The translations under genes were made by a program, and so were the position numbers. A DNA stretch of 64,000 nt, taken from assembly GCA_030704845.1 (NCBI GenBank), contig JAUYKZ010000001.1, positions 621 to 64,620 of the forward strand, in the 5' to 3' direction. This DNA comes from an archaeon. Its GTDB lineage: Archaea > Nanobdellota > Nanobdellia > Woesearchaeales > GW2011-AR9. Every line of letters begins with the position of its first letter. The first letter of the stretch is position 1. This document shows positions 946-35,868 of this stretch, in pieces. A model generated the notes under the pieces. The model did not search any database. It saw nothing but the letters and a program-made list of their open reading frames with translations, and was not told where the DNA came from.

Positions 946-2997
946 GTGATTGGGCATAATATTTATAAAGCATTAAGCTATTCTAAAACCATGCGTAAAA
1001 AGAGGTGTAATGTAGGTGAAGCTAGAGCTCTTTCTCTTAGAATTAACCCCGCAAAAAAAGGCCAGGTAACAATCTTTATCATACTTGGAATTCTTCTTGT
1101 TTTGGTTGCGATTCTTTACATTGCATTTCAAACTGAGATTGTAACTTTAACTCCTTCAGATATTATTCCAACTCAGAAAGGTAAAGTTGAAACTTTCATC
1201 TCTTCCTGTATTGAAAAAGTGGGTGATCAAGCTTTATTTTTAATTGGCTTACAAGGCGGATTTATTGAAGTTCCTTCCGAAATTAAATCTGACGGAGGTT
1301 CACATCTTAAACTTTCTCAGGATAATGTTGTACCATTCTGGGCGCAAGGACCGGTAACTTTTATTCCTCCGTTATCAGATATAAAATTAAGGGTTGATCG
1401 TTATGTTGAAGAAAATGTTCGTGATTGCTTAGTTAATTCCGAAGCATTCCAGGAATCTTATAATCTTCTTGAGAAAAGCGACATCACTGCCGATACTACT
1501 CTTGGTTCAAATAACGTTCAGTTTAACATTCGGTGGAACATTGAAGTTCGTAATAAAGATGGGGAAGTCGTAGCTGAACTAATCGACCATTCTGCTGAAT
1601 CTCCAATCCATTTCAAGAGTGCTTATGATCTTGCTACTCAAATTGTTACTCAGGAAATGCAGACCTTAAAATTGGAAGATCTTACCCAAGACTTGATTTC
1701 TTTAGAAGCTCCAAATGTTCCGGTTGCGGGAATTGAAGTAAGTTGCTCCCAGAAAAAATGGAAAGTAAGTAATGTTAAATCAGCTTTGAAAGAATTAATC
1801 CGAATAAATATTGGGCAATTAAAAGTTAGCGGCACTGAATTTGTTGAATTCCCCGACGAATTACCTTACTATCAGAATCATTATGTTTGGGATGTGGGAG
1901 AAGTTCCAAAAGATGTAAGCGCAAATTTCCAATTTGAAGAAACTTATCCATTCCAATTCCAAGTAACTCCTTCTGATGGTATTTCTCTTAAAAGTGATCA
2001 ACTTGGTGGAACAAGTTTACTTTCTGCGTTATGCATTCAATCCTGGAAATTTACTTACGATGTAACTTATCCAGTTCTGATAAAAGTTCGGGATGAAACT
2101 ACTGGTTATAATTTTAATATTGCCATGACTGTCCATTTAATCAGAAATATGCCTAACCGGAATGTTCCGTTACAAGCTCGCCCTTCATCTTCATTAGGAT
2201 TCCTTGATGATGAAGCGTTCTGTCAAAACAGAAGAATTCCGATGACTGTTGTTACGAATGAATTGGTGGAAAACAATTATGGTGTATATTTCACAGAACC
2301 TTTAGATGATGTAGATATCAGTTACACTTGCTTGAAATATCAATGTGAATATGATAAAACCGATCTTAACTTTGCTGAAAGAGGATATCAATCAGGATTC
2401 ACCACAAATTTCCCATATTGTGTTGGCGCAATTATGAGGGGAGAAAAAGAAGGATATAAAGAAGATTGGAAACGGGTAGTTACTCAATCAGGAGAAATTG
2501 TTGAATTAAATTTAGTTCCATTATATGACGTTCCTGCATCAAAGATTAAAGTTATCCAACATGAAGTTCGGGGAGATACTGTTCTTCCGGGAACTTCGCT
2601 TAATGAAGATTTAGCTGGTTCAATTCGAATTGCCTTTAGTAAACCGGGCAGTTTAACTCAAAATCAACAGATACCACCTCAGTTAAGACAACCATACCAC
2701 GAATCTAGAATTGGAATCTCTAAAGATATCGATCCTTCATTTGGCGATCGAGAGAAATTATCATTTTTAGCAAAAGCTGATTTCACTTATGAAGTTGACA
2801 TTCAACTTCTTGAAGGCGAAAAATTTGTTGGTGGCTATAAAGCTAATTGGACTGCTGATTGGTCAGCTTTAGAAAATGCGGAAGAAATTACATTTCATAT
2901 AGTTAATCTGAGAAATCCAAGTAATGAAGAAAGTTTCGAATTACTGCTCAACTTAGGCGAATTAAGTGCACAAGTACCTAAGCCGGAGATTAAATAA
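946..2997 (+). CDS. Hypothetical membrane-anchored protein with a large extracytoplasmic domain (683 aa; the true start may be the MRKKR Met near 991)
   Basis: Long ORF with a single N-terminal hydrophobic helix (VTIFIILGILLVLVAILYIAF) followed by a ~600-aa hydrophilic domain. It lies immediately upstream of, and co-directional with, the giant secreted protein. Confidence 0.6.
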   Translation: MIGHNIYKALSYSKTMRKKRCNVGEARALSLRINPAKKGQVTIFIILGILLVLVAILYIAFQTEIVTLTPSDIIPTQKGKVETFISSCIEKVGDQALFLIGLQGGFIEVPSEIKSDGGSHLKLSQDNVVPFWAQGPVTFIPPLSDIKLRVDRYVEENVRDCLVNSEAFQESYNLLEKSDITADTTLGSNNVQFNIRWNIEVRNKDGEVVAELIDHSAESPIHFKSAYDLATQIVTQEMQTLKLEDLTQDLISLEAPNVPVAGIEVSCSQKKWKVSNVKSALKELIRINIGQLKVSGTEFVEFPDELPYYQNHYVWDVGEVPKDVSANFQFEETYPFQFQVTPSDGISLKSDQLGGTSLLSALCIQSWKFTYDVTYPVLIKVRDETTGYNFNIAMTVHLIRNMPNRNVPLQARPSSSLGFLDDEAFCQNRRIPMTVVTNELVENNYGVYFTEPLDDVDISYTCLKYQCEYDKTDLNFAERGYQSGFTTNFPYCVGAIMRGEKEGYKEDWKRVVTQSGEIVELNLVPLYDVPASKIKVIQHEVRGDTVLPGTSLNEDLAGSIRIAFSKPGSLTQNQQIPPQLRQPYHESRIGISKDIDPSFGDREKLSFLAKADFTYEVDIQLLEGEKFVGGYKANWTADWSALENAEEITFHIVNLRNPSNEESFELLLNLGELSAQVPKPEIK

Positions 2998-3049: not shown

Positions 3050-6000
3050 ATGAAAACGACAAAAGGAAGATGGATGCGAATATTTTCTTTACTAGTTATC
3101 ATTCTATTTGTAAATCTTCCAATTGTTTCCGCCCTTGAGATATCAAATGTAAGGGCGGATAGTATCACCGAAACAAGTGCAGTCGTTAACTGGGAAACAG
3201 ATAGTAACGCTGACTCTTTTGTGAATTATGGACAAAGTAAAGACAATTTGGTATCAATTGGTGACGCATCCCAATTAATGAGTCATGCTCTTCCATTATC
3301 TGGCTTATCTTCAGATACAACTTATTATTTCTCAGTTGAAAGTAATAGTTTTGTAAGCGATAATGGTGGCGACTTATATTCTTTCAAGACGGCTGCTCCA
3401 GATACTGAAGCACCTCAAATTACTGCTGTCATTCCTGAATTTATTCAAGGAAGTAGATTAGATATAACTGGAAATGTCGAAACTGGTTCTCAGGTAAGAC
3501 TTTTCGTTAATGGTATTTTCTTACAAACGGCAAGTTCAGTTGCAGGCAAATTTACATTTCAAGGTGTATTATTAAAAGCAGATCAAGAAAATATTATTTC
3601 TCTTGAAGCAACTGATCCAGCTGGCAATTCTATGTCATTATCTGGAACCGTGTTTGCTGATACTTCTGCTCCTAAAATTACTCTCCCAGTAATCCCTGAA
3701 TTTAGTGATAGTAATTCATTTCAGTTGAAAGCCTCTTTATCTGAGAATTCCATGATTGAGATATTTAACGGTGATAAATCGGTTTCAAAAACTGAAGGAA
3801 CGTTAATCGATGTTACGATCTCTTTACAAGAAGGAGAAAATAATATCAAAATAGTTGTTTCTGATAAAGCTGGTTGGACTGCTGAAGAAAATTTTACGAT
3901 ACTCTCCGATACGAAACCGCCAACGATCACTTTCGATTTAACTAAAGGCACAGAATATTATGAAGGAAGAGCCGAAACGGATGTAACTGGTAAAACTGAA
4001 GCTGGCGCTAGTGTTTATCTTTACGTGTTTAGATCTTTCGGTGATGAATATAAAGCAGATTTCAAAAGAGCTTATGCGAAAACTATCGCTGACGAAAATG
4101 GCGAATTTAAATTCAGTGAGGTAAGTTTTCCTCCGCCTCCTTTTACAAGTATAACTGAACTTGCTCCAAGAGAAGTTCCAGCAGGATTACAAGAAGTATT
4201 AATTTCTCCTCTCGGTCTTATCGGGAATGAACAACGGAAAGGGTATAAAGTTTATTTGGTTGCGGAAGACAAATCAGGTAAAACTGCTTACGCTCAAAAA
4301 CAAATTAACATCAATACTTGTTTCTCGGCTGCAAGTGATTTCATTATTGATGAACAGATTCAGTTCCATGCTCCATTTAGGTTAGATCCGTCTTTAATGG
4401 AAGAAGGAAGAGAAGCAATTCAAGCTGTGTTTAATTTAAGTTACCGCGGAGATGCAATTGCTCCAATTAATACGGCTACAAATCAACCACAGGAAGCGTT
4501 CAGGATTCAAAGCGTAACATTCCAGAAAGCATGTACTCAAGCTATGTTGGATGAAGACGAATTTAAGTACGGATGTCAATTGTTGCCATCTTCATTAAGA
4601 TATCAAGCAAATGGAGATAAATCTGCTTATTATGTCACAGCTAATCTTAATCGAGCTTTAGATTTTATAGATAAGGAAGATAACGTTTGGGATGATTTCC
4701 AAAAACGTGAATTAAAAATGCCGGTGAAAGTAATTGTTAATTACCAAGAACGTGATGCTCAAGGTGGTTGGGAGCAACAGAAAACTCAAACTTCTTGTTA
4801 CGATTTAGGATATTTTGTTGATGTCCCAATAGAAAGTGAAAATTTAATCCCTGACTTTTTAGCAGAAGAAGGAGTAGATGCGCTTAATTTTACTATTGAA
4901 CAAATTGAAAATGTTAAACCTTACTTAAAAACAGCAATGATTGTTTCTGGTGTAAGTTGTATCGGTTCATTCTTGGTAAAACTAATTGCAAGATTATATA
5001 GAAATTTCATGGCAAACTTTGAACCTTGGTTAACTAGGATAAAAGGGGAAGATGAAAGATGTCCAAATATAGCTGGTCAAAATAAATTATATCTCGATAG
5101 CACAATTCAGCAATGGCAGGATTTGAAAAATCATCCTGAAGCAAATGGAAAAAGTGGTATTCCTGATTTAGATGCTGAAAAAAATTCTCTTAGTAAAAGA
5201 TGTCCGCAAACAGCAAGTGCGTGGGAAGTTGAGACTTATATCGATTTAGCGTATAGATTTACTTGTGACAGATTCTTCTGTAGATCTGTTCCAGCTGCTT
5301 GGACATCTAAAGAAACTGATGAAAAAATTCAAGGTGTTATCGCTGAACAAACCATGTGTACAGCTACCACTACCTGTTCATTCCTTGAACCAGTTGAGAA
5401 TTGCCAAGAGAAGTTGAAAACAAGTGTAGCTAACACCGAAAGAGCAAGAATATTGGAACAGGAAGGAAAATCTTTCACTTGTTATCTTAACAGACAGAAC
5501 GGATTATATTACACTGTTGAAGGAGATCCTCTACAAGAAGAACGGTTCATCTGGAAATTAGTCCCTGAAGAAACAATTAATAGTATTGGAACATTATCAC
5601 AACCAAATCTTCTTGCTTACAAACCAGAAGGATCACAGAACTTCTGTATCGCAACTGATTTAAGTTGTTCTAGTGCATGTAAACGAAAGAGTGGATATCA
5701 AGCGGTAACGGATGGATATACTTTAGAAAAACAAGGAGATAAAGTTGTTGTTGCAGGAAACGGCGGAGCTTGTTACCGTGAAGATCCAAAGGGGGATAGT
5801 ACAGTTCTAAGGAATGCTGGCGAAAATACTCTTCGTGATGCTGGCGGAGATAAAGTTGCTTTCGGATATACTAACGATTGTTTCGTTCAAGATCAGCCTG
5901 AACAATTATATCAATGTGTTTGTGAACCATCGAAAGCACAAGCTGGAGTTTCATTGAAAGGAGCAAGGGAAGCAGTTCGTGAAGTGAATGGTCAGACTGA

Positions 6001-8389
6001 AGAATGGGTATTCCGTCAAGATAGAGTTTATGCTGAATCAAAAGCAACAGCAGGAACGCATTACTCTAAAGATAGATATTATAGTGGAAGAGATTTCAGT
6101 GGAGCATTCGGAACAAATTATGCTCTTGATGCATTCAAGACTGAAGATTTTAGTACGGCAAGAGTCGATCCACATAACCAATTACTTGGAACTTTCCAAA
6201 GTATGTGTCTTCCTGGAATTTATGCAAGATTACAATTATTGCAAAGCATTTTGATGGGACTTAGAAATTGTATCATTGAAGCAAAATATACTGGATTCCA
6301 TGATGCAGGTATGTGTAAAACATTATTCACTCAATATGTCTGTGGTTTAATTTACAAAACAATATCTTATGCGGCAAGTAGTTGTTCACCACTTTCCTTG
6401 AAAGATGTTGGTGAAGATGATCAATTAAGTGCTATCGAAGCAGCTTTAGGTGCCGGTTCGAAAGCAATTCCTGCAACTTTAGATTCATCAATCCAAGAAG
6501 TGAAATCAGATTATGGAAATTCTGCATTAGATCAATATTTTGCATCCGGCAGTCAAGGATTTGCTGAATCGTTATGTTTAGCTGCGTTCGGTTATGACTT
6601 CCCTCTGGGCATGGACTTTATTCAAGATGCTGCTTACGCTTTCCCGACGGCGACAAATGTAATATTCCCAATTGCTGAAAGAGAATTGGCTACATTTGAT
6701 CCGGTGAAAGGAAGCGCGGTGTTCAATTATAATTTAGGTGGTACGATTCTTCCAGGTTGTAAAATTCAAAGTTATAGGACATCATTGAAATGTATCGGTC
6801 CAAATGATTTAGGTAAAGCTGGTGTTGATTGTTCCCAACAAAGTTGTGATTGTTTACAATCAACGGGAGATGTAACTGCCTTTGAAACTCAGAAATCATA
6901 TGTAATCCAAGGTGGAACTGGCGTGGGTGGTATTACTAAAGGACAGATGGTTGATCTTCCAATTCCATCGCCACAAAAAGTAACTAGTCCATTCAGGTAT
7001 GATCACGTGGTACTTGAATTAACTTTAGCTCAAGGAGAAAGTCCAGATACATGTTTCGATGAACAATATAGAACCGGTAACGGCGGAATTTTCTATTTCC
7101 CAATTCAAGATACTTCTCCTCCATTCGCGGTATCATGTCATGTGAACCTGAATAATGGTAAATTTGAATGTCCACAAATCAGTGCATTCTTTGGTGGAGG
7201 ACAAAGTTACTTCGAATACCCATTCATGCGTTGTGCGGATGCAAAGACGGGAGATTTCGTATCTTGTGATCAACCAAATCTTTTCATTAACAATGATCCA
7301 CAGAGAGATCAGATTGTGATTAAACCTTACTTAAATCTAGGAAACGAGAAAGCTTGTTTAAGAATTGAAGATGAAAGAAATTTAATTCAGCCGAGAATTA
7401 TTCCTCTTCCGGATGGTCTGCAAGGTCAGTATTCGCCGGTAATCACGTTAGGTCCAGTTACTGAGAATATGGTTTCTGGTGGTAGCGCAGCAACAATCAC
7501 CAAGAATACTGTGTTAAGCGATTCTGGGTGTGGTGGATTCCAGAACGGTGATTTGAATGTAATTACTCGTTCAGAAAAATCTGTAGCTAATACTAATTTA
7601 GAATTTAAATATGAAAGAAATGTTGAAGGATTGTATAAACTGGAAATTGGAACAACGGGAGTAACGTTAGATCCTGCTAGTAATAATAACAGATTTTTAG
7701 TAAATCAAAATAATGTTTGGAAAGGTGAAAAACAATTCATGACATTCCAAGAAGCTAACGAAGCAATTTTCTCTTATGAAGGATTTAGGTTCAGCAATGT
7801 ACTCGGTCAACCTATACCTAAAGTTGGTTCTGGTGGAAGTTGTATTTATCAAGCTCAATTCCCCAGATCGAATGTTGGACAAACTCAAGGCGGATTAAGA
7901 GTTACTGCTAAATTACTTCAAGCAGTTGGAGATAATTGTTATGAAGCAACTCAATTAATACCTAAATCTGATCTTGGTGTAAATCTCCACACTGAAAATA
8001 TTAGAATCCAACTTGAACCGGTTGAAGTTACGGTTGGTAAAAATCTTGCAGAAGATTTCTTTAACAGGAATTATGAAATTGTTTTAAGTAAAGCGGAAGC
8101 TATCGCTAAAAGAAAATCAGGTTCTTTAGAAGATGCGGAAGCTCTTTATTATTGGGTGTTGAGTTATGTTGCTCAGAAAGATGGCACAACTAAATATAAG
8201 GAGAATATAATCAGTTTACTTGATTTATTCTTCAAACGGGAAAGTAATCAAGGTAAAAGTGATCCTTACACGGAAGATGTTGTGAAGACCGGGGAGTATC
8301 AAATTGTTGAAAAGAATTTATGTTGTGTTGCAAAGAAGATTGGTACTGATAACAACTATGGTGTCTGTGAAGGGGTAGATTGTAAATAA
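3050..8389 (+). CDS. Giant secreted Cys-rich surface protein (1779 aa) with an N-terminal FN3/purple-acid-phosphatase-N-like domain and Ig-like repeats
   Basis: Uninterrupted 5.3-kb ORF with a signal peptide (MRIFSLLVIILFVNLPIVSALE). The ISNVRADSITETSAVVNWETDSNADSFVNYGQSKDNL segment matches the FN3/PAP-N consensus, followed by repeated ~90-aa beta-rich segments (ITAVIPEF..., ITLPVIPEF...). The C-terminal 1200 aa are very Cys-rich with no transmembrane helix. Confidence 0.8.
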   Translation: MKTTKGRWMRIFSLLVIILFVNLPIVSALEISNVRADSITETSAVVNWETDSNADSFVNYGQSKDNLVSIGDASQLMSHALPLSGLSSDTTYYFSVESNSFVSDNGGDLYSFKTAAPDTEAPQITAVIPEFIQGSRLDITGNVETGSQVRLFVNGIFLQTASSVAGKFTFQGVLLKADQENIISLEATDPAGNSMSLSGTVFADTSAPKITLPVIPEFSDSNSFQLKASLSENSMIEIFNGDKSVSKTEGTLIDVTISLQEGENNIKIVVSDKAGWTAEENFTILSDTKPPTITFDLTKGTEYYEGRAETDVTGKTEAGASVYLYVFRSFGDEYKADFKRAYAKTIADENGEFKFSEVSFPPPPFTSITELAPREVPAGLQEVLISPLGLIGNEQRKGYKVYLVAEDKSGKTAYAQKQININTCFSAASDFIIDEQIQFHAPFRLDPSLMEEGREAIQAVFNLSYRGDAIAPINTATNQPQEAFRIQSVTFQKACTQAMLDEDEFKYGCQLLPSSLRYQANGDKSAYYVTANLNRALDFIDKEDNVWDDFQKRELKMPVKVIVNYQERDAQGGWEQQKTQTSCYDLGYFVDVPIESENLIPDFLAEEGVDALNFTIEQIENVKPYLKTAMIVSGVSCIGSFLVKLIARLYRNFMANFEPWLTRIKGEDERCPNIAGQNKLYLDSTIQQWQDLKNHPEANGKSGIPDLDAEKNSLSKRCPQTASAWEVETYIDLAYRFTCDRFFCRSVPAAWTSKETDEKIQGVIAEQTMCTATTTCSFLEPVENCQEKLKTSVANTERARILEQEGKSFTCYLNRQNGLYYTVEGDPLQEERFIWKLVPEETINSIGTLSQPNLLAYKPEGSQNFCIATDLSCSSACKRKSGYQAVTDGYTLEKQGDKVVVAGNGGACYREDPKGDSTVLRNAGENTLRDAGGDKVAFGYTNDCFVQDQPEQLYQCVCEPSKAQAGVSLKGAREAVREVNGQTEEWVFRQDRVYAESKATAGTHYSKDRYYSGRDFSGAFGTNYALDAFKTEDFSTARVDPHNQLLGTFQSMCLPGIYARLQLLQSILMGLRNCIIEAKYTGFHDAGMCKTLFTQYVCGLIYKTISYAASSCSPLSLKDVGEDDQLSAIEAALGAGSKAIPATLDSSIQEVKSDYGNSALDQYFASGSQGFAESLCLAAFGYDFPLGMDFIQDAAYAFPTATNVIFPIAERELATFDPVKGSAVFNYNLGGTILPGCKIQSYRTSLKCIGPNDLGKAGVDCSQQSCDCLQSTGDVTAFETQKSYVIQGGTGVGGITKGQMVDLPIPSPQKVTSPFRYDHVVLELTLAQGESPDTCFDEQYRTGNGGIFYFPIQDTSPPFAVSCHVNLNNGKFECPQISAFFGGGQSYFEYPFMRCADAKTGDFVSCDQPNLFINNDPQRDQIVIKPYLNLGNEKACLRIEDERNLIQPRIIPLPDGLQGQYSPVITLGPVTENMVSGGSAATITKNTVLSDSGCGGFQNGDLNVITRSEKSVANTNLEFKYERNVEGLYKLEIGTTGVTLDPASNNNRFLVNQNNVWKGEKQFMTFQEANEAIFSYEGFRFSNVLGQPIPKVGSGGSCIYQAQFPRSNVGQTQGGLRVTAKLLQAVGDNCYEATQLIPKSDLGVNLHTENIRIQLEPVEVTVGKNLAEDFFNRNYEIVLSKAEAIAKRKSGSLEDAEALYYWVLSYVAQKDGTTKYKENIISLLDLFFKRESNQGKSDPYTEDVVKTGEYQIVEKNLCCVAKKIGTDNNYGVCEGVDCK

Positions 8390-8390
8390 A

Positions 8391-8957
8391 ATGTTGAAAC
8401 AAAAAAAAGGCGGGCTTGTAATTCAAGTTTTAGTATTGATGGTTCTGGTAGTAATTAGCAGCAGCGTTTTATTATTCCTAATTAATAAAGGCGTGATTAC
8501 TGTTAAAGAATCTGGACAAACAGAACCAATCCTTCAAGCAAATTTTTTACCAATCGCTAGAACTGGAACGGTGGCTGTTAAAGAATTTGCTTTCTGTAGT
8601 GATGTTAACGAAGATTTTGAATGTATCGGTCAGCGTTCACTGTTCCAGAAAGGAGATAAAGTTCACTTTAAGTTTGTTGTTGAAACTAATCCGTATGGGG
8701 GAGATGTCATCATTTTTCAGAATTACCGTTTAATTAATCCTAATGGGGTTATAATCTTGGAAGCTGAAGATATGAATAATTATCAGTATGATGCAAGAAG
8801 CGATAAAACATTGGAAGAAATAGTGTTTAAAGATTATATTATCACGGAAGAGAATGATATTCCTGGAACTTATAGGTTTGAATTACTTGTGAGCAATCCA
8901 TTATTAGAAAAGGATATAACTGTTACGGAGGAGTTCACTCTTGCTGGAAATGAATAA
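8391..8957 (+). CDS. Hypothetical membrane-anchored protein (188 aa)
   Basis: Starts 2 nt after the giant-protein stop. N-terminal transmembrane helix (LVIQVLVLMVLVVISSSVLLFLI). Overlaps the next gene by 17 nt, which suggests translational coupling. Confidence 0.55.
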   Translation: MLKQKKGGLVIQVLVLMVLVVISSSVLLFLINKGVITVKESGQTEPILQANFLPIARTGTVAVKEFAFCSDVNEDFECIGQRSLFQKGDKVHFKFVVETNPYGGDVIIFQNYRLINPNGVIILEAEDMNNYQYDARSDKTLEEIVFKDYIITEENDIPGTYRFELLVSNPLLEKDITVTEEFTLAGNE

Positions 8958-10647
8958 AATTTATTGGAAGAGAACTTTAGTATTACTTCTCCTACTTTCA
9001 ATAACATTAAGCATATCTGTATTTGCTGCAACTAAATCCCCTGAGGGATCAACAGCTAAGAGTATCAGTTTAGCTAGCGGAACAACTTGTAATAGTATCA
9101 CCCGATGTAAACAGATTCATCAAGCTTGGTTGCAGGTGTATGACTCTTTGGGTTACAGCAGGCTAGTGTTTAATCCGTCTTTAGGGAAATGGGTTAGTTT
9201 TGAGAGTGTTTATCTTCCCCAATTAGAAGATGCTCCATCTAGCACGGAAATTACCAATGAAGCAGAATCTTCAGAAGCAGTTAATCTTAATGAGATTAGT
9301 GGCAGGTATGCTGTTTTTATTAATGCTGCTGCTGGACATTTTGGAATCCAGCCGGCTTTAATTGCTGTTTTTATTAAGTATGAATCCGGGGGAAATCTTA
9401 AACCTTCCCCTACGGGTTGTCAAGGATTGATGCAGGTTTGTAACTGGAATGCTAATTATAATGGGTTCACCTCTGAGAATCCAAATATAAAAATTAAGGA
9501 TGATGCTCTCGATCCAGAAGCTAACATTTATGTGGGAACATACATATTGTCCCAGAAATTCAAAAGTGTTAGCGGATGTAAAGAAGGTAGTGATAGAATT
9601 AAATGTGTAATTGCAGCTTACAATGCGGGGGAAGGGCTGATTAATTATGCTACCAAGGGTTTTGAGGGTGAAGCAACTTGGCAGCAAGTAATAACCATAC
9701 TTCAAAATGAAGAGTTTGTGAAGGGATTAAAAGCATATTCTGATGAAAGATTTTGGATTAATTCGAATGGAGTAAACCAAACTTGGACTGATTCAGTTTC
9801 ATGTCAAGGTTTTAAAGATAAGGTTACTAGAAGAGGATGCAAGATGTACAATTTACAGTTTTATGTGAATAAAATCTTTGCTTCTGTATATGGAGCTTCT
9901 CAAGAACAGACTTCTTCAAGTGATGAAACAATTGCTACGGCAAGTGGCGTCGGTAAGAAAGTCTTACTAATTGGAGACTCTCATACGGCAGGTTATTATG
10001 GGGAATTACTCCATAACTCTTTGGTTAATGTAAATTATGAAGTGAGAACTTATGGTTGTGGTGGAAAAGTTGCAACAGCCTTTGCTAACAACAGGGAGGT
10101 TAGTTGTAGTCTGTCTTACAAATGGATTGGTAATGAAAAAACCTTGCTAACAAAACTCACTCCTAATTTTTTCCAGACTGAAATTAATTCATTCAATCCA
10201 GATATCGTTGTAATCAGTCTTGGGACAAATTATTGGCTCAGAGAAAGTAGTATTGCTAATCCAGGAAGCGTACATTATGCTTCTGTAAATTCATTATTGG
10301 ATAGTGCTCTAGGAAAAACTTGTTATTGGGTTGGGGCACCAGTGTCAACTATTAAATTTGGAGATAGTAAATTGAATTATGATGGTACTTGTACCAAAAA
10401 CCATCCCAATGATTATGAAACTAGTTGTTCTCTGGTGAATATACCTGGAATAAATCGGGGAGATATATACGATTATAATTTAGTTAATACAAATCTAAGA
10501 AAACTAGTTGAAGATAAAGGATGTAACTTTATAGACCCAACGCAGATTGCTGGTTTAACGGAAGATAAATTAAGAGACAAGTTACATTTTAATAATGACG
10601 GTTATACTATCTGGGCAAACTACGTCTTCAAGAAGATAATCAAGTAA
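8941..10647 (+). CDS. Secreted lytic transglycosylase (SLT domain) fused to a C-terminal SGNH/GDSL-type hydrolase domain
   Basis: Signal peptide is present. The SLT motifs are YESGGNL...GCQGLMQV and AYNAGEG. The C-terminal half carries the GDSH block (LLIGDSHTAGYYG) and the distal block (HFNNDGYTIWANYV) characteristic of SGNH hydrolases. Confidence 0.75.
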   Translation: MLEMNKIYWKRTLVLLLLLSITLSISVFAATKSPEGSTAKSISLASGTTCNSITRCKQIHQAWLQVYDSLGYSRLVFNPSLGKWVSFESVYLPQLEDAPSSTEITNEAESSEAVNLNEISGRYAVFINAAAGHFGIQPALIAVFIKYESGGNLKPSPTGCQGLMQVCNWNANYNGFTSENPNIKIKDDALDPEANIYVGTYILSQKFKSVSGCKEGSDRIKCVIAAYNAGEGLINYATKGFEGEATWQQVITILQNEEFVKGLKAYSDERFWINSNGVNQTWTDSVSCQGFKDKVTRRGCKMYNLQFYVNKIFASVYGASQEQTSSSDETIATASGVGKKVLLIGDSHTAGYYGELLHNSLVNVNYEVRTYGCGGKVATAFANNREVSCSLSYKWIGNEKTLLTKLTPNFFQTEINSFNPDIVVISLGTNYWLRESSIANPGSVHYASVNSLLDSALGKTCYWVGAPVSTIKFGDSKLNYDGTCTKNHPNDYETSCSLVNIPGINRGDIYDYNLVNTNLRKLVEDKGCNFIDPTQIAGLTEDKLRDKLHFNNDGYTIWANYVFKKIIK

Positions 10648-13898: not shown

Positions 13899-14603
13899 TC
13901 AATTCTGTGGCACATCCTTCACTTTTCCGAAATCAAACACTTCTCCGTTATTTACGATAAACACCGAGAAATCTCCTACTCTTTTTAAGAATGGACTTAA
14001 TATCATCTCTTTCAGAATGTCCGTGCCTTCTAATAATGGGTTAAAACTTGGAACAGCAATTAATACTTTCTTTTTCCAAGAACCTTTAAGGAAACATTTG
14101 AATTTCTCCCATTTACTCCCTTGTCGAATTGTAATTGCTGGATGTTCATGGCCGATAATTATTGTATTTGCATCAGTTTCAACTAATTCGTCCCCGTGAA
14201 TAACTAGTATATCTCCGATTTTATATTCGGTAACAACTTGCACTCCTCTTTTTTCAGCAATTGGTGCAATGATTGGGTCATGATTTCCTTTAATGATTAT
14301 TACTTCATCACATCTTTGAAGAAGGAAATCAAGAAATTGAAGAACTTCTCGCCATTCTTGTCTTAGAACTCTCCCAAATTCATGTTTTAAATCTCCGTTA
14401 ATTACAATAGTTTTTGGCTTAACTTTAAGAAGTATTTCTTCCATGTTTTTGAGAATTTCATCTAACTGGTGTCTTGGAACTAGAATTCCTTTATGGTGAA
14501 GAGCTTCTTCATACCCAATATGGAGGTCATTAATTATCAAAACTTTATTTTCTTTGATCCATAAAGAAGCCCGGATGATTTCAATACCTGGGCTGATTTC
14601 CAT
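13899..14603 (-). CDS. Calcineurin-like metallophosphoesterase
   Basis: Motifs NDLHIGYEE, GDL(K)HEF, GNHD and GHEH in canonical order. Confidence 0.75.
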   Translation of the reverse strand: MEISPGIEIIRASLWIKENKVLIINDLHIGYEEALHHKGILVPRHQLDEILKNMEEILLKVKPKTIVINGDLKHEFGRVLRQEWREVLQFLDFLLQRCDEVIIIKGNHDPIIAPIAEKRGVQVVTEYKIGDILVIHGDELVETDANTIIIGHEHPAITIRQGSKWEKFKCFLKGSWKKKVLIAVPSFNPLLEGTDILKEMILSPFLKRVGDFSVFIVNNGEVFDFGKVKDVPQN

Positions 14604-14915: not shown

Positions 14916-15662
14916 ATGCGCAAACTCTCCTTGGTAGCTCTGGTCTTAAAATTTGGTTTAGGTCTAGCGAATGCTACACCTCCGGCTTTAGACCTTCCGA
15001 TAGTTAGTATTATGGGCGATTCACTTTCGGTAAGAGCCACTTCAAAAGGGGGATATGCAACTTATCTGCAGGATTTATGTTCTGATTTAGAAATTGATAC
15101 TTACGGGATTGGCGGACAAAATACTCGGCAGATGGTTAATCGTTTTAAGAAAGACATTGTCGATAAAACTCTTGGCAGTTATAGGATGTATGATGATGTT
15201 ATAATCTTTGCTGGGATAAATGATATTGCTATGATAGATAATGATTATGTTAAAACCGGCAAGGTTTGGTCTGAAGAAAGAGTAGATGAACATACTCTGG
15301 GAATCATAGAAAGACTAGACTCTATGTATAAAGAAGCAAGAGATTCCGGAATGAGGGTTATTGCGGTAACAATCACTCCTTGGGGCGGATATAAGGGAAA
15401 AGTTACAAGATACGGACAATCTCACTGGTCAGAAAATAGTCAGAAAGCGATAGATGCAATAAACTTGTGGCTTCGCTCAAAACCTGAAAATGTAGATGTC
15501 GTGATTGATGCTTATGATGTTTTGGAAGATTCTAATCGTCCAGATGCATTAAAGAAAGAATTTACCGGAGACCGACTTCATCTCAGTTCAAAAGGTAATA
15601 AAGTTCTTGCTAATGGAATCTATAATGCTGCATATCAGACAATCTGTTCACCAGATAATTAG
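14916..15662 (+). CDS. Secreted SGNH/GDSL-family hydrolase (esterase/lipase-like)
   Basis: Signal peptide, GDS block (IMGDSLS), and the C-terminal DRLHLSSKGNKVLANGI block with the catalytic Asp/His arrangement. Confidence 0.7.
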   Translation: MRKLSLVALVLKFGLGLANATPPALDLPIVSIMGDSLSVRATSKGGYATYLQDLCSDLEIDTYGIGGQNTRQMVNRFKKDIVDKTLGSYRMYDDVIIFAGINDIAMIDNDYVKTGKVWSEERVDEHTLGIIERLDSMYKEARDSGMRVIAVTITPWGGYKGKVTRYGQSHWSENSQKAIDAINLWLRSKPENVDVVIDAYDVLEDSNRPDALKKEFTGDRLHLSSKGNKVLANGIYNAAYQTICSPDN

Positions 15663-24293: not shown

Positions 24294-25307
24294 TTAAGAA
24301 ATTTCTAACAACCTAAACAACTCGCCAGTATCACTTCCAATAATCAAATCAGTTTTCTCTTTAATGATCTCGTTAGTTATAATCTCTGGGAATTGTAACG
24401 GATTATCACCACAAGAAGTTCCAGGCCGACATTGTGAAGAAGTATATCCCTGAAGTTCTTTCACAATTCTTAGAACACACTGTTCATTGCAATTATAATC
24501 TTCTTTTAAGCCCATAATCCATAATGCTCCTATTGTGTGAGAATCTCTTTTTTCCCTTTCACTTAAGGAGACATCTCCTTGTTTTAATCTTAAATAATAA
24601 TTGTTATCTAGCATGGATCCATCATCCATTCTTATACCTCCTGACGAAAGTAAATCCGTTCCAGTTTCTCTGAGGTATGCATCTCCTTTCTTAGCAAATT
24701 CTTTTGCATTACCCTCCAAATCCATTGCCACAACATCACAATTTACTCTTTCATTTACTTCAATCGCTATAGCTTCACTAAACCAGTTAGGATGTCCTCT
24801 TAACATGTAATATAAGAAGAAATGGGTTGTTTCATGTTCTTCAGCAATGATATCTGAAAGATCTTTCGCTACTTTCTCTCCAAATTGGGTGTTACCAAAA
24901 AGATTTGATTGAGAAATCCCAGACCAACTAGTACTCCCACCGGTAGTGCAGCAACATCCTTCTTCTTGTTCACATTCAGGTTTTTCAATTGATGATATTT
25001 TGTAAATAACTCTCGGTGCAGAGAACTGAAAATGGTTTTCTAGACATTGAACAACTTTGGTTTGTAATTGTAAATAATATTGTAACAATTCTGAATTGCA
25101 ATTGTTATCTTGGCATAACATTTCCACGTAGCTGTTACATAATTCTCCTTGGCATTGAGTTTCCGATAAAGTATCCGTTTTGGTTACTTTTTTAATCGGC
25201 TGATTTAATGTTGAATAACTTACGATAGCGACGATTATCAGTGCTAGAAATAACATTGCTAAGATTATTTTTTTCCATTTCATTTTGATTAACAAGATGT
25301 TAATCAT
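24294..25307 (-). CDS. Secreted Cys-rich protein with an HExxH motif (possible zinc metalloprotease-like); the likely start is the MKWKK Met near 25283
   Basis: Signal peptide or transmembrane helix, many Cys pairs, and EHETTHFF (HExxH). Confidence 0.5.
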   Translation of the reverse strand: MINILLIKMKWKKIILAMLFLALIIVAIVSYSTLNQPIKKVTKTDTLSETQCQGELCNSYVEMLCQDNNCNSELLQYYLQLQTKVVQCLENHFQFSAPRVIYKISSIEKPECEQEEGCCCTTGGSTSWSGISQSNLFGNTQFGEKVAKDLSDIIAEEHETTHFFLYYMLRGHPNWFSEAIAIEVNERVNCDVVAMDLEGNAKEFAKKGDAYLRETGTDLLSSGGIRMDDGSMLDNNYYLRLKQGDVSLSEREKRDSHTIGALWIMGLKEDYNCNEQCVLRIVKELQGYTSSQCRPGTSCGDNPLQFPEIITNEIIKEKTDLIIGSDTGELFRLLEIS

Positions 25308-27618: not shown

Positions 27619-28716
27619 ATGGCTTTAGATGATATCTTAACTAGTGTACGAAGAACTGCGGGAGACACAATTATAGCTAGCGGTGTTACAGCTGGAGCTT
27701 CAATGCTAGCTGAGAACTACCTTGAAAATTCTACTGGTTCAGATCCATTAATTACTCTCCTTGAGGTTGGCTGTGGATTAGCTGGAGGATATCTTATTAA
27801 AAAAGCTATGTTGGGCAATTTTAGTAACAAAAGAAGTAGAAAAACAAAGAAGAATCTTCTTGACCGAGGAATTGGAACAACCGCTGCAACTGTTGCCGGA
27901 AATGTTTTCGCTCTTAATGAAATCGTTAATTATGTGTCAAATCAAGAACCTGGATATGCTCAAGCTTTAATTGCGGCAGGTTTAGGGGCAGGAATGTATG
28001 TTGCAAATAAAATCGTTCCCCCAGCTGTTGAGTTTATTGGAAAATTATTACCGAAGAAAAATTTATTTGAAGTCCTGAAAAGATTTGGTCTCGCCGCATC
28101 ATTAGTTTATGCTGGAGTTAGCGGAGCAGGATATGTAAATGAAAGAGAATCTAGAGGTAATATTAGCAGAGATTATAATACTAAAATAAACTATAATAAT
28201 CACAAAGTTAAAAATTTACTTGAAACTGATAAAGTGGATCAGAATTTTTTATCTTCCTTAGAAGGCATGTGTAATAGATTAAATATGAATTGTATGGCAG
28301 TATTATCTGTTATGCATTATGAAACAGGTGGCAGTTTTAGTCCAAGTATCAAAAACCCTGGAAGTTCGGCAACTGGGTTAATTCAATTTATGGGTTCAAC
28401 AGCAAAGGGACTTGGAACTACAACCAAAAAACTTTCAGAAATGACCCAAACTGAACAATTAGAATATGTCGAGAAATATTTTAATCTCATAAAAGATAAT
28501 TTTGATGAAGTTAATTATATGGATCCTAAAAATGTTGCTCTAGCAGTATTTTATCCAAGTGCTATCGGTAAAGGGGATAATCATATCATTGCAGAGGAAG
28601 GTAGAAGTAAGCTTGATGATAGAATATTAAAAGCTAATAAGGATCATAATGGTGATGGTAAAATTACTGCTAAGGAATATACTGGCAAAGCTTTGAGTAT
28701 GGGGTATTTGCAATAG
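27619..28716 (+). CDS. Membrane-associated lysozyme-like/SLT-domain protein with a C-terminal EF-hand calcium-binding loop
   Basis: Gly-zipper hydrophobic N-terminal region. The SLT-like catalytic segment is MHYETGGSFSPSIKNPGSSATGLIQFMGST. The canonical EF-hand loop is DHNGDGKITAKE. Confidence 0.6.
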   Translation: MALDDILTSVRRTAGDTIIASGVTAGASMLAENYLENSTGSDPLITLLEVGCGLAGGYLIKKAMLGNFSNKRSRKTKKNLLDRGIGTTAATVAGNVFALNEIVNYVSNQEPGYAQALIAAGLGAGMYVANKIVPPAVEFIGKLLPKKNLFEVLKRFGLAASLVYAGVSGAGYVNERESRGNISRDYNTKINYNNHKVKNLLETDKVDQNFLSSLEGMCNRLNMNCMAVLSVMHYETGGSFSPSIKNPGSSATGLIQFMGSTAKGLGTTTKKLSEMTQTEQLEYVEKYFNLIKDNFDEVNYMDPKNVALAVFYPSAIGKGDNHIIAEEGRSKLDDRILKANKDHNGDGKITAKEYTGKALSMGYLQ

Positions 28717-32786: not shown

Positions 32787-32857
32787 ATGGCTATTGTAAA
32801 CACAGAAACTATATAAAATCTGCTTTTTCCACAAATGTATTCGTTGGTGGTGTAAAG

Positions 32858-35022: not shown

Positions 35023-35868
35023 TTATAAAAAATAGAGACCAATGTGGTACATTTTAACTATTAAGAGTACAATAAATCCTAATAAGAAGCTTGGTACAAA
35101 AGGAACACCTTCTTTAATAAGAACGCTAGTAAGTTTCTTTTCTCGATAAAATTTCTGTAATTTTTGCAGATGTCTTTTTTCGATAGTTCTCTTTGTAACA
35201 ATGATTTCTTTACCTACCACGACTTCTTCAGCTAACCAATCGCCTTCTGTAACATCTGAAATCTTTTTCCGTTGCAGGAAACAACTATCTTCAACTGCAT
35301 TTACAAATAAAAACAAATAGAACAAAGCTGGAGGAAAAAACATTAATGGCCAAATTGTGGGGTAAAAGAATGTAAATATTAAAGTCGCTACAAACAGAAG
35401 CATGACTATACTATGAACAATCCATTGCTGTTTAATTTTTTCTTTCCATTCTTTAACAAATGTTTCTCTTTTTTTAATAGCCAGGAATCCCATCCAAAGT
35501 ACTCCGTAAATCGCGCCAAGGAATAAAAGACCGATGAAAAATATAACCAAATTGAAACTTTCAAGACTTAAAGGGAGGTTAATTCCAATAGCCGCGCCCA
35601 TGCCCATTAATAATTTACTATCTCCACCGCCCCATTGATTAGAATAATAAAACAGAACGGCAATTAAAAAACAAAGAATGAACCCAAGAAAACCACTTAC
35701 AATAATATGCCAATCAACAATTACCGAAAAAATTCCCCTTATCCCAAGCACAGCGAAAAGAAAACCGTAATTTAACCAATCTGGGATTTCCCTAGTTTTA
35801 AGGTCGCTATATGAGGATAATAGCAAAACTAGAATGGTAATCGTGATTATTATAGTCTCAAAAAGCAT
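35023..35868 (-). CDS. Prepilin/preflagellin peptidase (A24 family, PibD/FlaK-like)
   Basis: Polytopic membrane protein with a first catalytic Asp in SDLKTREIPD and a second in WGGGDSKLL. Confidence 0.7.
   Translation of the reverse strand: MLFETIIITITILVLLLSSYSDLKTREIPDWLNYGFLFAVLGIRGIFSVIVDWHIIVSGFLGFILCFLIAVLFYYSNQWGGGDSKLLMGMGAAIGINLPLSLESFNLVIFFIGLLFLGAIYGVLWMGFLAIKKRETFVKEWKEKIKQQWIVHSIVMLLFVATLIFTFFYPTIWPLMFFPPALFYLFLFVNAVEDSCFLQRKKISDVTEGDWLAEEVVVGKEIIVTKRTIEKRHLQKLQKFYREKKLTSVLIKEGVPFVPSFLLGFIVLLIVKMYHIGLYFL

What the first reader, a model, noticed from the sequence alone, without database searches (positions are those of the whole stretch)
3050..8389. 1779-aa Cys-rich giant ORF with an FN3 / purple-acid-phosphatase-N-like entry domain
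Single uninterrupted 5.3-kb ORF. The first ~100 aa after the signal peptide match the FN3/PAP-N pattern (ISNVRADSITETSAVVNWETDSNADSFVNYGQSKDNL...YYF). They are followed by about three Ig-like repeats, each beginning I(T)xxVIPEF. The remaining ~1200 aa contain more than 80 Cys and no transmembrane helix. This is not an S-layer-like composition and it matches no family I can name, so it could be a new class of disulfide-stabilised extracellular attachment protein.
Basis: seen in the sequence. Interest (0 to 1): 0.7.

Follow-up and report, generated by a model that had tools for sequence, protein, structure and literature searches.

The report
Giant archaeal wall-attack surface protein
This intact 1779-residue secreted protein belongs to a large uncharacterised family of tiny Woesearchaeota archaea; it always sits between two pilin-like genes and usually next to bacterial-cell-wall-cutting enzymes, so it is probably the scaffold these archaea use to grip and breach bacterial walls.

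Summary

The family is restricted to Woesearchaeota/Nanoarchaeia: 167 species genomes and 591 clusters at 50% identity. It sits in a fixed operon:
- a ~670-aa protein and a ~190-aa protein, both with type IV pilin-like (class III) signal peptides, flank the giant gene;
- a secreted, highly variable murein hydrolase usually follows (SLT+SGNH in this window).

In three homologues a murein hydrolase domain is fused to the giant protein's C-terminus.

Best reading (inferred, confidence ~0.5): an extracellular scaffold or adhesin, held by pilin-like partners, that presents peptidoglycan hydrolases to bacterial cell walls. An S-layer role is disfavoured: there is no anchor and N-glycosylation sequons are depleted. 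It is a new variant of pilus-associated adhesin systems and a good lead on Woesearchaeota–bacteria interaction.

The parts
991..2997 (+). Gene A: ~668-aa partner protein with a type IV pilin-like (class III) signal peptide (..AKKG|QVTIFIILGILLVLVAILYIAF). The rest has no known domain but has conserved Cys. The listed GTG start at 946 is probably wrong; homologues align from the ATG at 991.
   Evidence: A homologue lies directly upstream of the giant gene in 79 of 86 loci. The 7 misses are contig ends. The motif [KRQ][GA]Q[VI][TS]x[FY] is present in 72 of 76 homologues, and 3 of the other 4 carry the near-variants N/H/S-GQ[VI]T. Identity is 27-53%. No Pfam hit.
3050..8389 (+). Gene B: the giant 1779-aa ORF of the finding (mature protein ~193 kDa, pI 4.7).
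3050..3133 (+). B aa 1-28: Sec-type signal peptide, with predicted cleavage after VSA.
   Evidence: It is the most hydrophobic segment of B. The NLPxVSALEISNV consensus is conserved across the family.
3137..3400 (+). B aa 30-117: FN3 / purple-acid-phosphatase-N-like domain.
   Evidence: Pfam PF16656 scores 31.6 bits against a gathering score of 30, over aa 38-114. The same family hits 19 of 22 long homologues.
3401..4309 (+). B aa 118-420: three Ig-like stalk units starting with DT..P.IT at aa 118, 204 and 287. The number of such units varies among homologues.
   Evidence: PDB profile hit to Bap 7dm0 over aa 132-283, E=4e-8. Big_13 and Glucodextran_B are sub-threshold. An insertion hot-spot lies after aa 164. 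The third unit is inferred, not matched.
4319..4849 (+). B aa 424-600: beta-rich domain with four invariant Cys (424, 495, 509, 583).
4853..5032 (+). B aa 602-661: predicted single 60-residue helix. It contains the conserved semi-hydrophobic stretch aa ~625-647 (AMIVSGVSCIGSFLVKLIA).
5033..6649 (+). B aa 662-1200: Cys-rich mixed alpha/beta core plus a helical bundle (aa ~1054-1196). It holds the best-conserved family motifs, AYRWTCDRFFCR and GLRNCIxEAKxTGxxDAGxCK. Fold unknown.
6656..8011 (+). B aa 1203-1654: region of several beta-sandwich domains. The part after aa ~1440 is the least conserved in the protein.
8021..8341 (+). B aa 1658-1764: TPR-like helical end domain. In some homologues murein-hydrolase or wall-binding modules are attached after this point.
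8391..8957 (+). Gene C: 188-aa type IV pilin-like protein (MLKQKKG|GLVIQ + a 22-residue hydrophobic helix + a ~140-aa beta domain with 2 invariant Cys). It starts 1 nt after the stop of B.
   Evidence: A homologue lies directly downstream in 78 of 86 loci. Seven misses are contig ends and one is a truly different ORF. The motif [GA]xxxx[E/Q]+hydrophobic occurs in at least 59 of 78 homologues (E 48, Q 11). Alignment A10.
8941..10647 (+). Gene D: secreted lytic transglycosylase (SLT, ES...GLMQ intact) fused to an SGNH/GDSL esterase. It overlaps the end of C.
   Evidence: Pfam SLT 55.7 bits (gathering score 21.3) and Lipase_GDSL_2 33.4 bits (32.9). The equivalent position in other loci holds variable murein hydrolases.
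35023..35868 (-). Archaeal prepilin (class III signal) peptidase, the candidate processing enzyme for A and C. It is flanked by small pilin-like ORFs at 34390-34962(-) and 32223-32834(-).
   Evidence: Pfam Peptidase_A24 53.3 bits. The pilin-like N-termini NRG|SLELSIQT.. and KRG|SIGLSVN.. were read. The link to the operon is inferred.

Best explanation
The giant protein (B) is the secreted, probably disulfide-stabilised scaffold or adhesin of a four-gene surface module, A-B-C-D. The module is ancestral to Woesearchaeota/Nanoarchaeia.

A (~670 aa) and C (~190 aa) carry type IV pilin-like class III signal peptides. After cleavage by the prepilin peptidase they would hold B either at the cell membrane or at the tip of a type IV-like filament.

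B extends an FN3/Ig stalk and a conserved Cys-rich body of unknown fold. Its variable C-terminal beta-sandwich/TPR end carries or docks a murein hydrolase: usually the separate product D, sometimes a fused domain.

The likely function is to bind a bacterial cell and locally open its peptidoglycan. This archaeon lineage is not expected to make peptidoglycan itself, so the target is inferred to be foreign.

Shown:
- ORF integrity;
- the domain parse of the N-terminus;
- family size and taxonomic range;
- operon conservation;
- pilin-like motifs in A and C;
- hydrolase domains in D and in fused B homologues.

Inferred:
- physical A-B-C-D association;
- pilus versus membrane anchoring;
- disulfides;
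- the bacterial target.
For: (1) Family and range.
- About 95 full-length homologues at 35-59% identity, all labelled 'hypothetical'. The named ones are Woesearchaeota or Nanoarchaeota.
- 591 cluster representatives.
- 167 species genomes, with the same taxa in the record titles.
- No relative on viral contigs.
- The flanks are housekeeping genes: PAC2, Fpg, GrpE-DnaK-DnaJ.

(2) Operon.
- A is directly upstream in 79 of 86 loci and C directly downstream in 78 of 86. Nearly all misses are contig ends.
- B/C/D start and stop codons abut or overlap.

(3) Pilin-like partners.
- A has K/R-G|Q-V/I-T followed by a ~20-residue apolar helix in 72 of 76 homologues.
- C has G/A followed by E or Q at +5 in at least 59 of 78.
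- A terminal Gly, Gln at +1 and Glu at +5 are the stated hallmarks of archaeal EppA-processed pilins (PMC3875500).
- A prepilin peptidase and two small pilin-like ORFs lie in the same window.

(4) Murein link.
- The gene after C carries SLT in 14 of 67 loci, GDSL/SGNH in 11, DUF2272 in 10, and M23, M15_4, Amidase_2 and Phage_lysozyme2 in 4 each.
- Polysacc_deac_1 occurs in 3, Hydrolase_2 in 2, and GH25, Glucosaminidase and 3D in 1 each.

(5) Fusions at the C-terminus of B.
- P0024 has a Pro/Thr linker followed by a complete MepA-like M74 endopeptidase (46.6 bits).
- P0151 has an SLT with ES..GLMQ.
- P0105 has a phage-tail lysozyme (31.2 bits, gathering score 28.2).

(6) Extracellular, rigid character. 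37 of 44 Cys are at least 90% conserved, and there is no membrane anchor.

(7) The literature already proposes that the large murein transglycosylases of Woesearchaeota and Pacearchaeota act on bacterial hosts (PMC8204110; PMC9723730).
Against: - No pilin Pfam or NCBIfam model hits A or C. Profile searches against PDB are not significant (fimbrial protein, E=0.82).
- No type IV filament ATPase or platform gene lies in the operon, nor among the window ORFs I scanned.
- A pilin-like N-terminus can also act as a plain membrane anchor, as in bindosome-type proteins.
- No physical interaction among A, B, C and D was tested.
- D is absent in some loci: enolase follows C in 6 of 67. In the most divergent locus (L004) neither C nor D is recognisable.
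- The core of B has no recognisable binding or catalytic fold, so its own activity is unknown.
- The hosts of Woesearchaeota are unknown.
Confidence: 0.5

Rival explanations
1. B is the main cell-envelope (S-layer-type) protein of Woesearchaeota. A would be its membrane-anchored stalk, by analogy with SlaA/SlaB of Sulfolobales. The hydrolase gene would be a neighbour with no mechanistic link.
For: - B is a large secreted anchor-less protein rich in beta-sandwiches, encoded next to a membrane-anchored partner.
- The family is near-universal in the lineage, single-copy, and sits in a housekeeping neighbourhood.
- SlaA/SlaB is cited from my own knowledge.
Against: - Sequence and Cys conservation are unusually high for an S-layer protein: 40-60% identity across an order-level clade and 37 near-invariant Cys.
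- There is no C-terminal TM or sorting signal.
- N-glycosylation sequons are strongly depleted: 3 against 13.3+-3.5 expected in this protein. The family median is 4 against 11.4, and all 78 members fall below expectation.
- Independent fusions of murein hydrolases to the C-terminus of B indicate a functional link to peptidoglycan.
Confidence: 0.13
2. The module is a nutrient-scavenging 'murein-osome'. B would be a cell-surface platform that binds free or detrital peptidoglycan and positions hydrolases to harvest amino sugars and peptides, with no attachment to a living host.
For: The same murein-hydrolase linkage and fusions apply. Class III signal peptides are also used by archaeal substrate-binding 'bindosome' proteins (bioRxiv 10.64898/2026.04.22.720090). 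Woesearchaeota have reduced metabolism, according to the literature read.
Against: - A ~190-kDa scaffold with a long stalk and a deeply conserved core is an elaborate device for simple substrate capture.
- Lytic-transglycosylase, amidase and endopeptidase sets resemble wall-breaching enzymes of phage tails and secretion systems (PHROG tail and endolysin hits for D).
- No transporter genes are linked to the operon.
Confidence: 0.15
3. B is a membrane-active translocon or fusogen. After D opens the wall, the conserved semi-hydrophobic helix and the helical bundle of B would insert into the host membrane and create a conduit between the cells.
For: - The second most hydrophobic segment of B is conserved, rich in small residues, and embedded in a 60-residue helix next to a helical bundle.
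Against: - The summed insertion energy of the helix is unfavourable: +2.6 kcal/mol here, family median +3.4.
- There is no direct evidence of membrane activity.
Confidence: 0.08
4. The ORF is an artefact (chimeric assembly or frameshift fusion), or a fast-evolving orphan with no conserved function.
For: None was found beyond the general risk that comes with metagenome assemblies.
Against: An identical protein is deposited in NCBI. About 90 homologues from independent assemblies are colinear over 97-100% of its length. There are 167 species genomes with relatives.
Confidence: 0.01

Closest known systems
PilC/PilY1 tip adhesins with minor pilins (PilIJK/GspK family) of bacterial type IV pili
   Same: Both are large Sec-secreted non-pilin proteins encoded among pilin-like genes, one of which is unusually large (A compared with GspK/PilK/TadG). 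Both are proposed to be held by those pilins and to mediate contact with other cells (PMC13533445).
   Different: There is no sequence or fold similarity. No beta-propeller or PilC Pfam hit was found. The C-terminal ~19 residues of B are poorly conserved, so a PilY1-type terminal beta-strand is not evident. The system is archaeal, has no linked assembly genes, and is coupled to murein hydrolases.
Large extracellular murein lytic transglycosylase proteins of Woesearchaeota/Pacearchaeota (fam00969 of Castelle et al. 2021; Vigneron et al. 2022)
   Same: They belong to the same organisms. They are the products of the gene I call D, which lies next to B in most loci. The hypothesis is also shared: interaction with bacterial cell walls.
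   Different: In the passages I searched (term look-ups) those papers describe the hydrolase only. I found no mention of the conserved A-B-C partners, their pilin-like signals or the fusions.
Giant Ig-repeat surface adhesins (Bap, Ca2+-stabilised tandem-repeat adhesins)
   Same: The N-terminal stalk of B is similar to them: PDB 7dm0 at E=4e-8 and NCBIfam Ca_tandemer at 28 bits, below its cutoff of 50.
   Different: Only ~250 of the 1779 residues are similar. B has no long repeat array, no T1SS or LPXTG-type signals, and is dominated by a non-repetitive Cys-rich body.
SlaA/SlaB S-layer pair of Sulfolobales
   Same: A large anchor-less secreted protein encoded next to a membrane-anchored partner.
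   Different: B shows high conservation, many invariant Cys, sequon depletion and linkage to murein hydrolases. No structural match was listed.
Wall-breaching hydrolases attached to delivery machines (phage tail lysozymes, VirB1/BfpH-type transglycosylases, polymorphic effectors)
   Same: A conserved structural machine is combined with a swappable peptidoglycan hydrolase, either fused or encoded next door. D hits PHROG tail and endolysin families. One fused domain is Phage_lysozyme2.
   Different: No phage, T4SS or T6SS structural genes are present, and there are no relatives on viral contigs. The carrier protein is unrelated to any known spike or tail protein.

Membership tests
FN3 / Pur_ac_phosph_N domain (PF16656) | Profile score above Pfam's gathering threshold | tested here: met
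   31.6 bits against 30 at aa 38-114. The same hit occurs in most homologues. The margin is narrow, and fn3 itself is below its threshold.
Bacterial Ig-like domains (Big_13 / Glucodextran_B / Bap-type) | Profile match to the domain family | tested here: inconclusive
   Pfam gives 24.1-24.9 bits against a cutoff of 27. The family profile does hit Bap 7dm0 at E=4e-8 over aa 132-283.
Type IV pilin-like proteins (class III signal peptide): applies to neighbours A and C, not to B | Short basic leader ending in Gly/Ala, Gln at +1 and/or Glu at +5, followed by a ~20-residue hydrophobic helix | tested here: met
   A meets it in 72 of 76 homologues and C in at least 59 of 78. The criteria are quoted from PMC3875500.
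Type IV pilin-like proteins (class III signal peptide) | A prepilin peptidase is encoded in the genome | tested here: met
   Peptidase_A24 at 35023-35868(-), 53.3 bits.
Type IV pilin-like proteins (class III signal peptide) | Match to a curated pilin profile or to a solved pilin | tested here: not met
   No Pfam or NCBIfam pilin hit even at E<=10. The PDB profile search gave only a fimbrial protein at E=0.82. The small pilin-like ORFs beside the peptidase also get no Pfam hit, so the test is weak.
Type IV pilin-like proteins (class III signal peptide) | Actual cleavage and incorporation into a filament; assembly ATPase and platform protein present | not testable with these tools
   Only 64 kb of this genome is available. 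No ATPase or platform gene was found in the ORFs scanned.
PilC/PilY1 tip adhesins | C-terminal beta-propeller (PilC/PilY1 domain) and a conserved terminal beta-strand peptide | tested here: not met
   No Pfam hit. The predicted C-terminal part is beta-sandwiches plus a TPR-like domain. The last ~19 residues are poorly conserved. This is a resemblance of role only.
Archaeal S-layer glycoproteins | Membrane or lipid anchor (C-terminal TM, PGF-CTERM) | tested here: not met
   The C-terminus ..NNYGVCEGVDCK has no hydrophobic segment.
Archaeal S-layer glycoproteins | Abundant N-glycosylation sequons | tested here: not met
   3 sequons against 13.3+-3.5 expected. All 78 family members fall below expectation.
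Archaeal S-layer glycoproteins | Forms the regular envelope lattice; very high abundance | not testable with these tools
   This needs proteomics or cryo-ET.
HAP2/fusexin class II fusogens | Three-domain class II fold with fusion loops and a C-terminal TM anchor | tested here: not met
Lytic transglycosylase SLT (PF01464): applies to neighbour D | Profile score above threshold and the catalytic Glu-Ser plus GLMQ motif | tested here: met
   55.7 bits against 21.3. ..YESGGN...CQGLMQV.. was read.

The most novel reading that the evidence does not exclude
A-B-C-D is a previously unrecognised, lineage-wide cross-domain attack organelle. In this reading a pilin-mounted protein of novel fold lets an archaeon dock on a bacterium and cut through its peptidoglycan with exchangeable enzymes. 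Through its conserved semi-hydrophobic helix and helical bundle it would then engage or open the bacterial membrane. This would make Woesearchaeota parasites or predators of bacteria with a dedicated machine unrelated to known secretion systems.
Probability: 0.12. Interest if true: 0.9.

Novelty: new variant of a known kind. Interest (0 to 1): 0.62.

Why it matters
Woesearchaeota are among the most widespread uncultivated archaea. Their hosts and mode of interaction are unknown. The only molecular hint so far was their odd possession of large murein hydrolases.

This analysis shows that those hydrolases belong to a fixed module. The module also has two pilin-like proteins and a ~190-kDa conserved protein of unknown fold, and the hydrolase is sometimes fused to that protein. 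That turns a loose observation into a defined and testable apparatus.

It provides:
- concrete targets for antibodies, pull-downs and cryo-ET;
- a marker family for surveying the lifestyle;
- a variable C-terminal region plus hydrolase repertoire that could help predict which bacteria are targeted.

It also adds about 1350 residues of protein with no detectable relative among solved structures.

Tried and rejected
- Pfam, NCBIfam and PHROG scans of B found nothing beyond aa ~285.
- A profile search of the 78-sequence family alignment against all PDB sequences gave only Ig/FN3 hits at the N-terminus.
- Foldseek against PDB with model 1 gave only tandem-sandwich matches with TM <= 0.1.
- The AFDB Foldseek library was unavailable.
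- Model coordinates are not exposed, so Cys-Cys distances and disulfide pairing could not be measured.
- The transmembrane reading of aa 625-647 was rejected. The insertion-energy scale is unfavourable, and homologues carry secreted enzymes at the C-terminus, which places both halves outside the cell.
- Viral or mobile origin was rejected: there are no relatives on viral contigs and the synteny is housekeeping.
- BLAST self-comparison of the N-terminal stalk found no significant internal repeats. The units were defined by motif only.
- Pilin Pfam models did not detect A or C. PDB profile searches of A and C were not significant.
- Literature searches found no description of this protein family or of the operon.
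Full report
**1. The observation**

The window holds one uninterrupted ORF, 3050..8389 on the + strand. It starts with ATG and encodes 1779 aa. It is not an assembly artefact.
- The identical protein is deposited as 'MAG: hypothetical protein Q8Q01_00020 [archaeon]'.
- About 90 homologues of 1750-2400 aa from independent assemblies align over 97-100% of its length at 35-59% identity.

- There are 44 Cys, not more than 80. That is 2.47% overall and 3.24% after aa 420, against 1.14% in the other ORFs of the window. No Cys lies before aa 424.
- Three stalk units begin with DT..P.IT at aa 118, 204 and 287. Only the first two contain VIPEF.

The FN3/PAP-N call is correct but narrow: PF16656 scores 31.6 bits against a gathering score of 30, over aa 38-114. 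The next two units resemble Bap-type Ig domains (PDB 7dm0, profile E=4e-8, aa 132-283).

**2. Anatomy of the protein**

aa 1-28 form a Sec-type signal peptide; the consensus NLPxVSA|LEISNV is conserved. The FN3 domain and the three Ig-like units follow.

Everything from aa ~420 to the end has no match in four searches.
- Pfam, NCBIfam and PHROGs found nothing.
- A family-profile search of PDB sequences found nothing in this part.

I built two AlphaFold2 models from a 43-sequence alignment.
- Model 1 covers aa 580-1779 (mean pLDDT 74.9).
- Model 2 covers aa 415-1210 (mean pLDDT 73.7).

Together they suggest the following parts:
- a beta-rich domain with four invariant Cys (aa 424-600);
- one 60-residue helix (aa 602-661);
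- a mixed Cys-rich region;
- a helical bundle (aa ~1054-1196);
- several beta-sandwiches (aa ~1203-1654);
- a TPR-like helical end domain (aa ~1658-1764).

37 of the 44 Cys are at least 90% conserved in a 78-sequence alignment whose members fall to 25-40% identity. This is the pattern expected for structural disulfides in an extracellular protein. Pairing could not be checked because model coordinates are not exposed.

Conservation is highest in aa 1000-1440 (mean 51% identity to the query) and lowest in aa 1441-1779 (28-31%).

**3. Is there a transmembrane helix?**

Residues ~625-647 (AMIVSGVSCIGSFLVKLIA) are the second most hydrophobic stretch of B and are conserved. The apolar run is only 15-16 residues before a Lys or Arg.

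| Segment | Summed Hessa-scale insertion energy (kcal/mol) |
|---|---|
| B aa 629-647 (window) | +2.6 |
| same stretch, family median | +3.4 |
| B signal peptide | -0.65 |
| N-terminal anchors of neighbours A and C | -6.0 and -4.3 |

Homologues carry secreted enzymes at their C-terminus (section 6), so both halves of B should lie outside the cell. I therefore agree with 'no TM helix', and note this helix as an unexplained conserved feature.

**4. Family size and range**

A HMMER profile of the core (aa 660-1440) found 591 representatives of 50%-identity clusters at E<=1e-3, and 201 at E<=1e-30. Most of those listed are 1500-2700 aa.

A scan of one genome per GTDB species found relatives in 167 genomes. 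Every informative record title says Woesearchaeota, Nanoarchaeota or Nanoarchaeia. Many third-party-annotation (TPA) MAGs bear what looks like a placeholder 'uncultured Methanosarcinales' label.

No relative was found on viral contigs. The window itself is ordinary chromosome: PAC2, Fpg, GrpE-DnaK-DnaJ, DNA ligase, GatE, AsnRS, TGT and SRP54.

**5. Conserved operon**

I examined 86 loci, a few of them redundant.
- A homologue of the upstream ~670-aa protein (A) lies directly before the giant gene in 79. All 7 misses are contig ends.
- A homologue of the downstream ~190-aa protein (C) lies directly after it in 78. Seven misses are contig ends.
- The eighth miss is the most divergent locus, L004, which has an unrelated ORF there.

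Stops and starts abut or overlap. In the window, C starts 1 nt after B's stop, and D overlaps C.

A and C both look like type IV pilin-like proteins.
- A has [K/R][G/A]|Q[V/I]T followed by a ~20-residue apolar helix in 72 of 76 homologues. Three of the other four have N/H/S-GQ[VI]T, and the fourth ORF (L079) starts downstream of the motif.
- C has a short basic leader, G/A, then E (48) or Q (11) at +5, in at least 59 of 78. The remainder mostly show variants.
- A terminal Gly, Gln at +1 and Glu at +5 are the features reported for archaeal EppA-processed pilins (PMC3875500).

The window also encodes a prepilin peptidase (Peptidase_A24, 35023-35868, minus strand). Two small pilin-like ORFs flank it.

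No curated pilin profile detects A or C, and profile searches of PDB are not significant. The pilin assignment therefore rests on the motif and the context only.

**6. Link to peptidoglycan**

The gene after C is almost always on the same strand and abuts C. In the window it is a secreted SLT lytic transglycosylase with intact ES...GLMQ, fused to an SGNH/GDSL esterase. From general knowledge, SGNH esterases of the Ape type remove O-acetyl groups that block lytic transglycosylases, so this pairing would make sense. That activity was not tested here.

Domains found in 67 such 'D' proteins:

| Pfam family | Members |
|---|---|
| SLT | 14 |
| FGE-sulfatase | 14 |
| GDSL_2 | 11 |
| DUF2272 | 10 |
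| Metallophos | 5 |
| Peptidase_M23, Peptidase_M15_4, Amidase_2, Phage_lysozyme2 | 4 each |
| Polysacc_deac_1 | 3 |
| Hydrolase_2 | 2 |
| GH25, Glucosaminidase, 3D | 1 each |

In 6 loci enolase follows C, so there is no D. Many D proteins share a short module, C-x4-6-C-x-EID-x-VW...VWD..W. It could be a docking element, but this is speculation.

In three homologues a murein hydrolase is fused directly to the C-terminus of the giant protein.
- P0024 has a Pro/Thr linker followed by a complete MepA-like LAS endopeptidase. Peptidase_M74 scores 46.6 bits, and the HxxxxD and HxH motifs are visible.
- P0151 has an SLT with ES..GLMQ.
- P0105 has a phage-tail lysozyme (31.2 bits against 28.2).

Other tails carry sub-threshold SH3_3-like and lectin-like repeats. 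P0072 and P0075 have a transglutaminase-core domain inserted in the stalk. About 15 of 122 homologues have C-terminal tails longer than 100 aa; the median tail is 14 aa.

**7. Interpretation**

The best-supported reading is that B is the extracellular scaffold or adhesin of an A-B-C-D module.
- The pilin-like A and C would tether it, either on the membrane or at the tip of a type IV-like filament.
- The variable C-terminal end would carry or dock murein hydrolases and wall-binding modules.
- The lineage is not expected to make peptidoglycan (archaea normally lack murein transglycosylases, PMC8204110). The target is therefore inferred to be bacterial.

This agrees with earlier proposals based on the hydrolase alone (PMC8204110; PMC9723730; PMC12352652). 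In the passages my term searches returned, those papers do not mention B or its pilin-like partners. My literature searches found no description of the family or the operon.

The nearest functional analogy is the PilC/PilY1 adhesin held by minor pilins (PMC13533445). B fails the membership features of that family: it has no propeller and no conserved terminal strand.

**8. Rivals**

- An S-layer role, by analogy with SlaA/SlaB, is disfavoured. Conservation is high, there are many invariant Cys, and there is no anchor. N-glycosylation sequons are depleted family-wide: 3 against 13.3+-3.5 expected here, family median 4 against 11.4, and 78 of 78 below expectation. D shows 1 against 7.4. The hydrolase fusions also argue against it.
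- A nutrient-scavenging platform for detrital peptidoglycan cannot be excluded.

**9. Verdict**

The finding is real and more interesting in context than in isolation. It is a member of a large, uncharacterised, Woesearchaeota-wide family with a body of unknown fold. It is embedded in a conserved operon of pilin-like genes and murein hydrolases.

Function is inferred, not shown. My confidence in the wall-attachment/breaching scaffold reading is about 0.5. I rate novelty as a new variant of a known kind (pilin-associated adhesin machinery) and interest at about 0.6.

Noticed in passing
window 3050-8389 and 8950-10647; alignment A1 (78 homologues): N-glycosylation sequons (N-x-S/T) are strongly depleted in the giant protein: 3 against 13.3+-3.5 expected by shuffling. 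All 78 family members fall below expectation, with a median of 4 against 11.4. The neighbouring hydrolase D shows 1 against 7.4 and A shows 1 against 4.3. A control Cys-rich ORF (32858-34123) is not depleted. The cause is unknown.
   Followed up: partly
window 8941-10647 aa ~50-95; loci L010, L013, L015, L016, L033, L039, L056, L068, L072, L082 and others: Many of the otherwise unrelated downstream hydrolases share a short module, C-x4-6-C-x-EID-x-VW ... VWD..W (in the window: CNSITRCKQIHQAWLQVYD...). It may be a common docking or targeting element.
   Followed up: partly
window 34390-34962(-), 35023-35868(-), 32223-32834(-): A prepilin peptidase (Peptidase_A24 with the archaeal C-terminal domain) is flanked by two ~190-200-aa ORFs with pilin-like N-termini (NRG|SLELSIQT.., KRG|SIGLSVN..). 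This suggests a type IV filament locus without its ATPase or platform genes in view.
   Followed up: partly
window 27619-28716 (+): A 365-aa ORF with N-terminal hydrophobic segments has a by-eye lytic-transglycosylase-like motif (..HYETGGSF...ATGLIQF..). It got no Pfam hit at E<=1e-3. It may be a second murein-active enzyme.
   Followed up: no
window 32858-34123 (+) and 24294-25307 (-): Two further ORFs with no Pfam hit are Cys-rich (4.5% and 4.2% Cys). The first (32858-34123) has a lipoprotein-like N-terminus and a C-terminal cluster of closely spaced Cys; the second was not examined. Cys-rich proteins, at least one of them apparently secreted, seem common in this organism.
   Followed up: no
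window 946-2997 (+): The mechanically listed GTG start at 946 is probably wrong. Homologues align from Met16, which is the ATG at 991 (MRKKR...).
   Followed up: yes
window 57270-58094 (-): An ORF with a Bro-N domain, typical of viruses and mobile elements, sits among housekeeping genes. It may be a remnant of an integrated element.
   Followed up: no
loci L009, L011-L013, L015, L018, L020 and others (genome-contig scan): Dozens of TPA MAGs that carry this Woesearchaeota-type operon are titled 'uncultured Methanosarcinales archaeon'. The taxon label is probably a placeholder or an error.
   Followed up: no
proteins P0072 and P0075 (aa ~240-369): Two homologues have a transglutaminase-core (cysteine-protease-fold) domain inserted into the N-terminal stalk between the FN3 domain and the Ig units.
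   Followed up: partly
window 14916-15662 (+) and 13899-14603 (-): A stand-alone GDSL/SGNH hydrolase and a metallophosphoesterase lie a few kb downstream of the operon. The same two domain types are found fused into D proteins at other loci.
   Followed up: no
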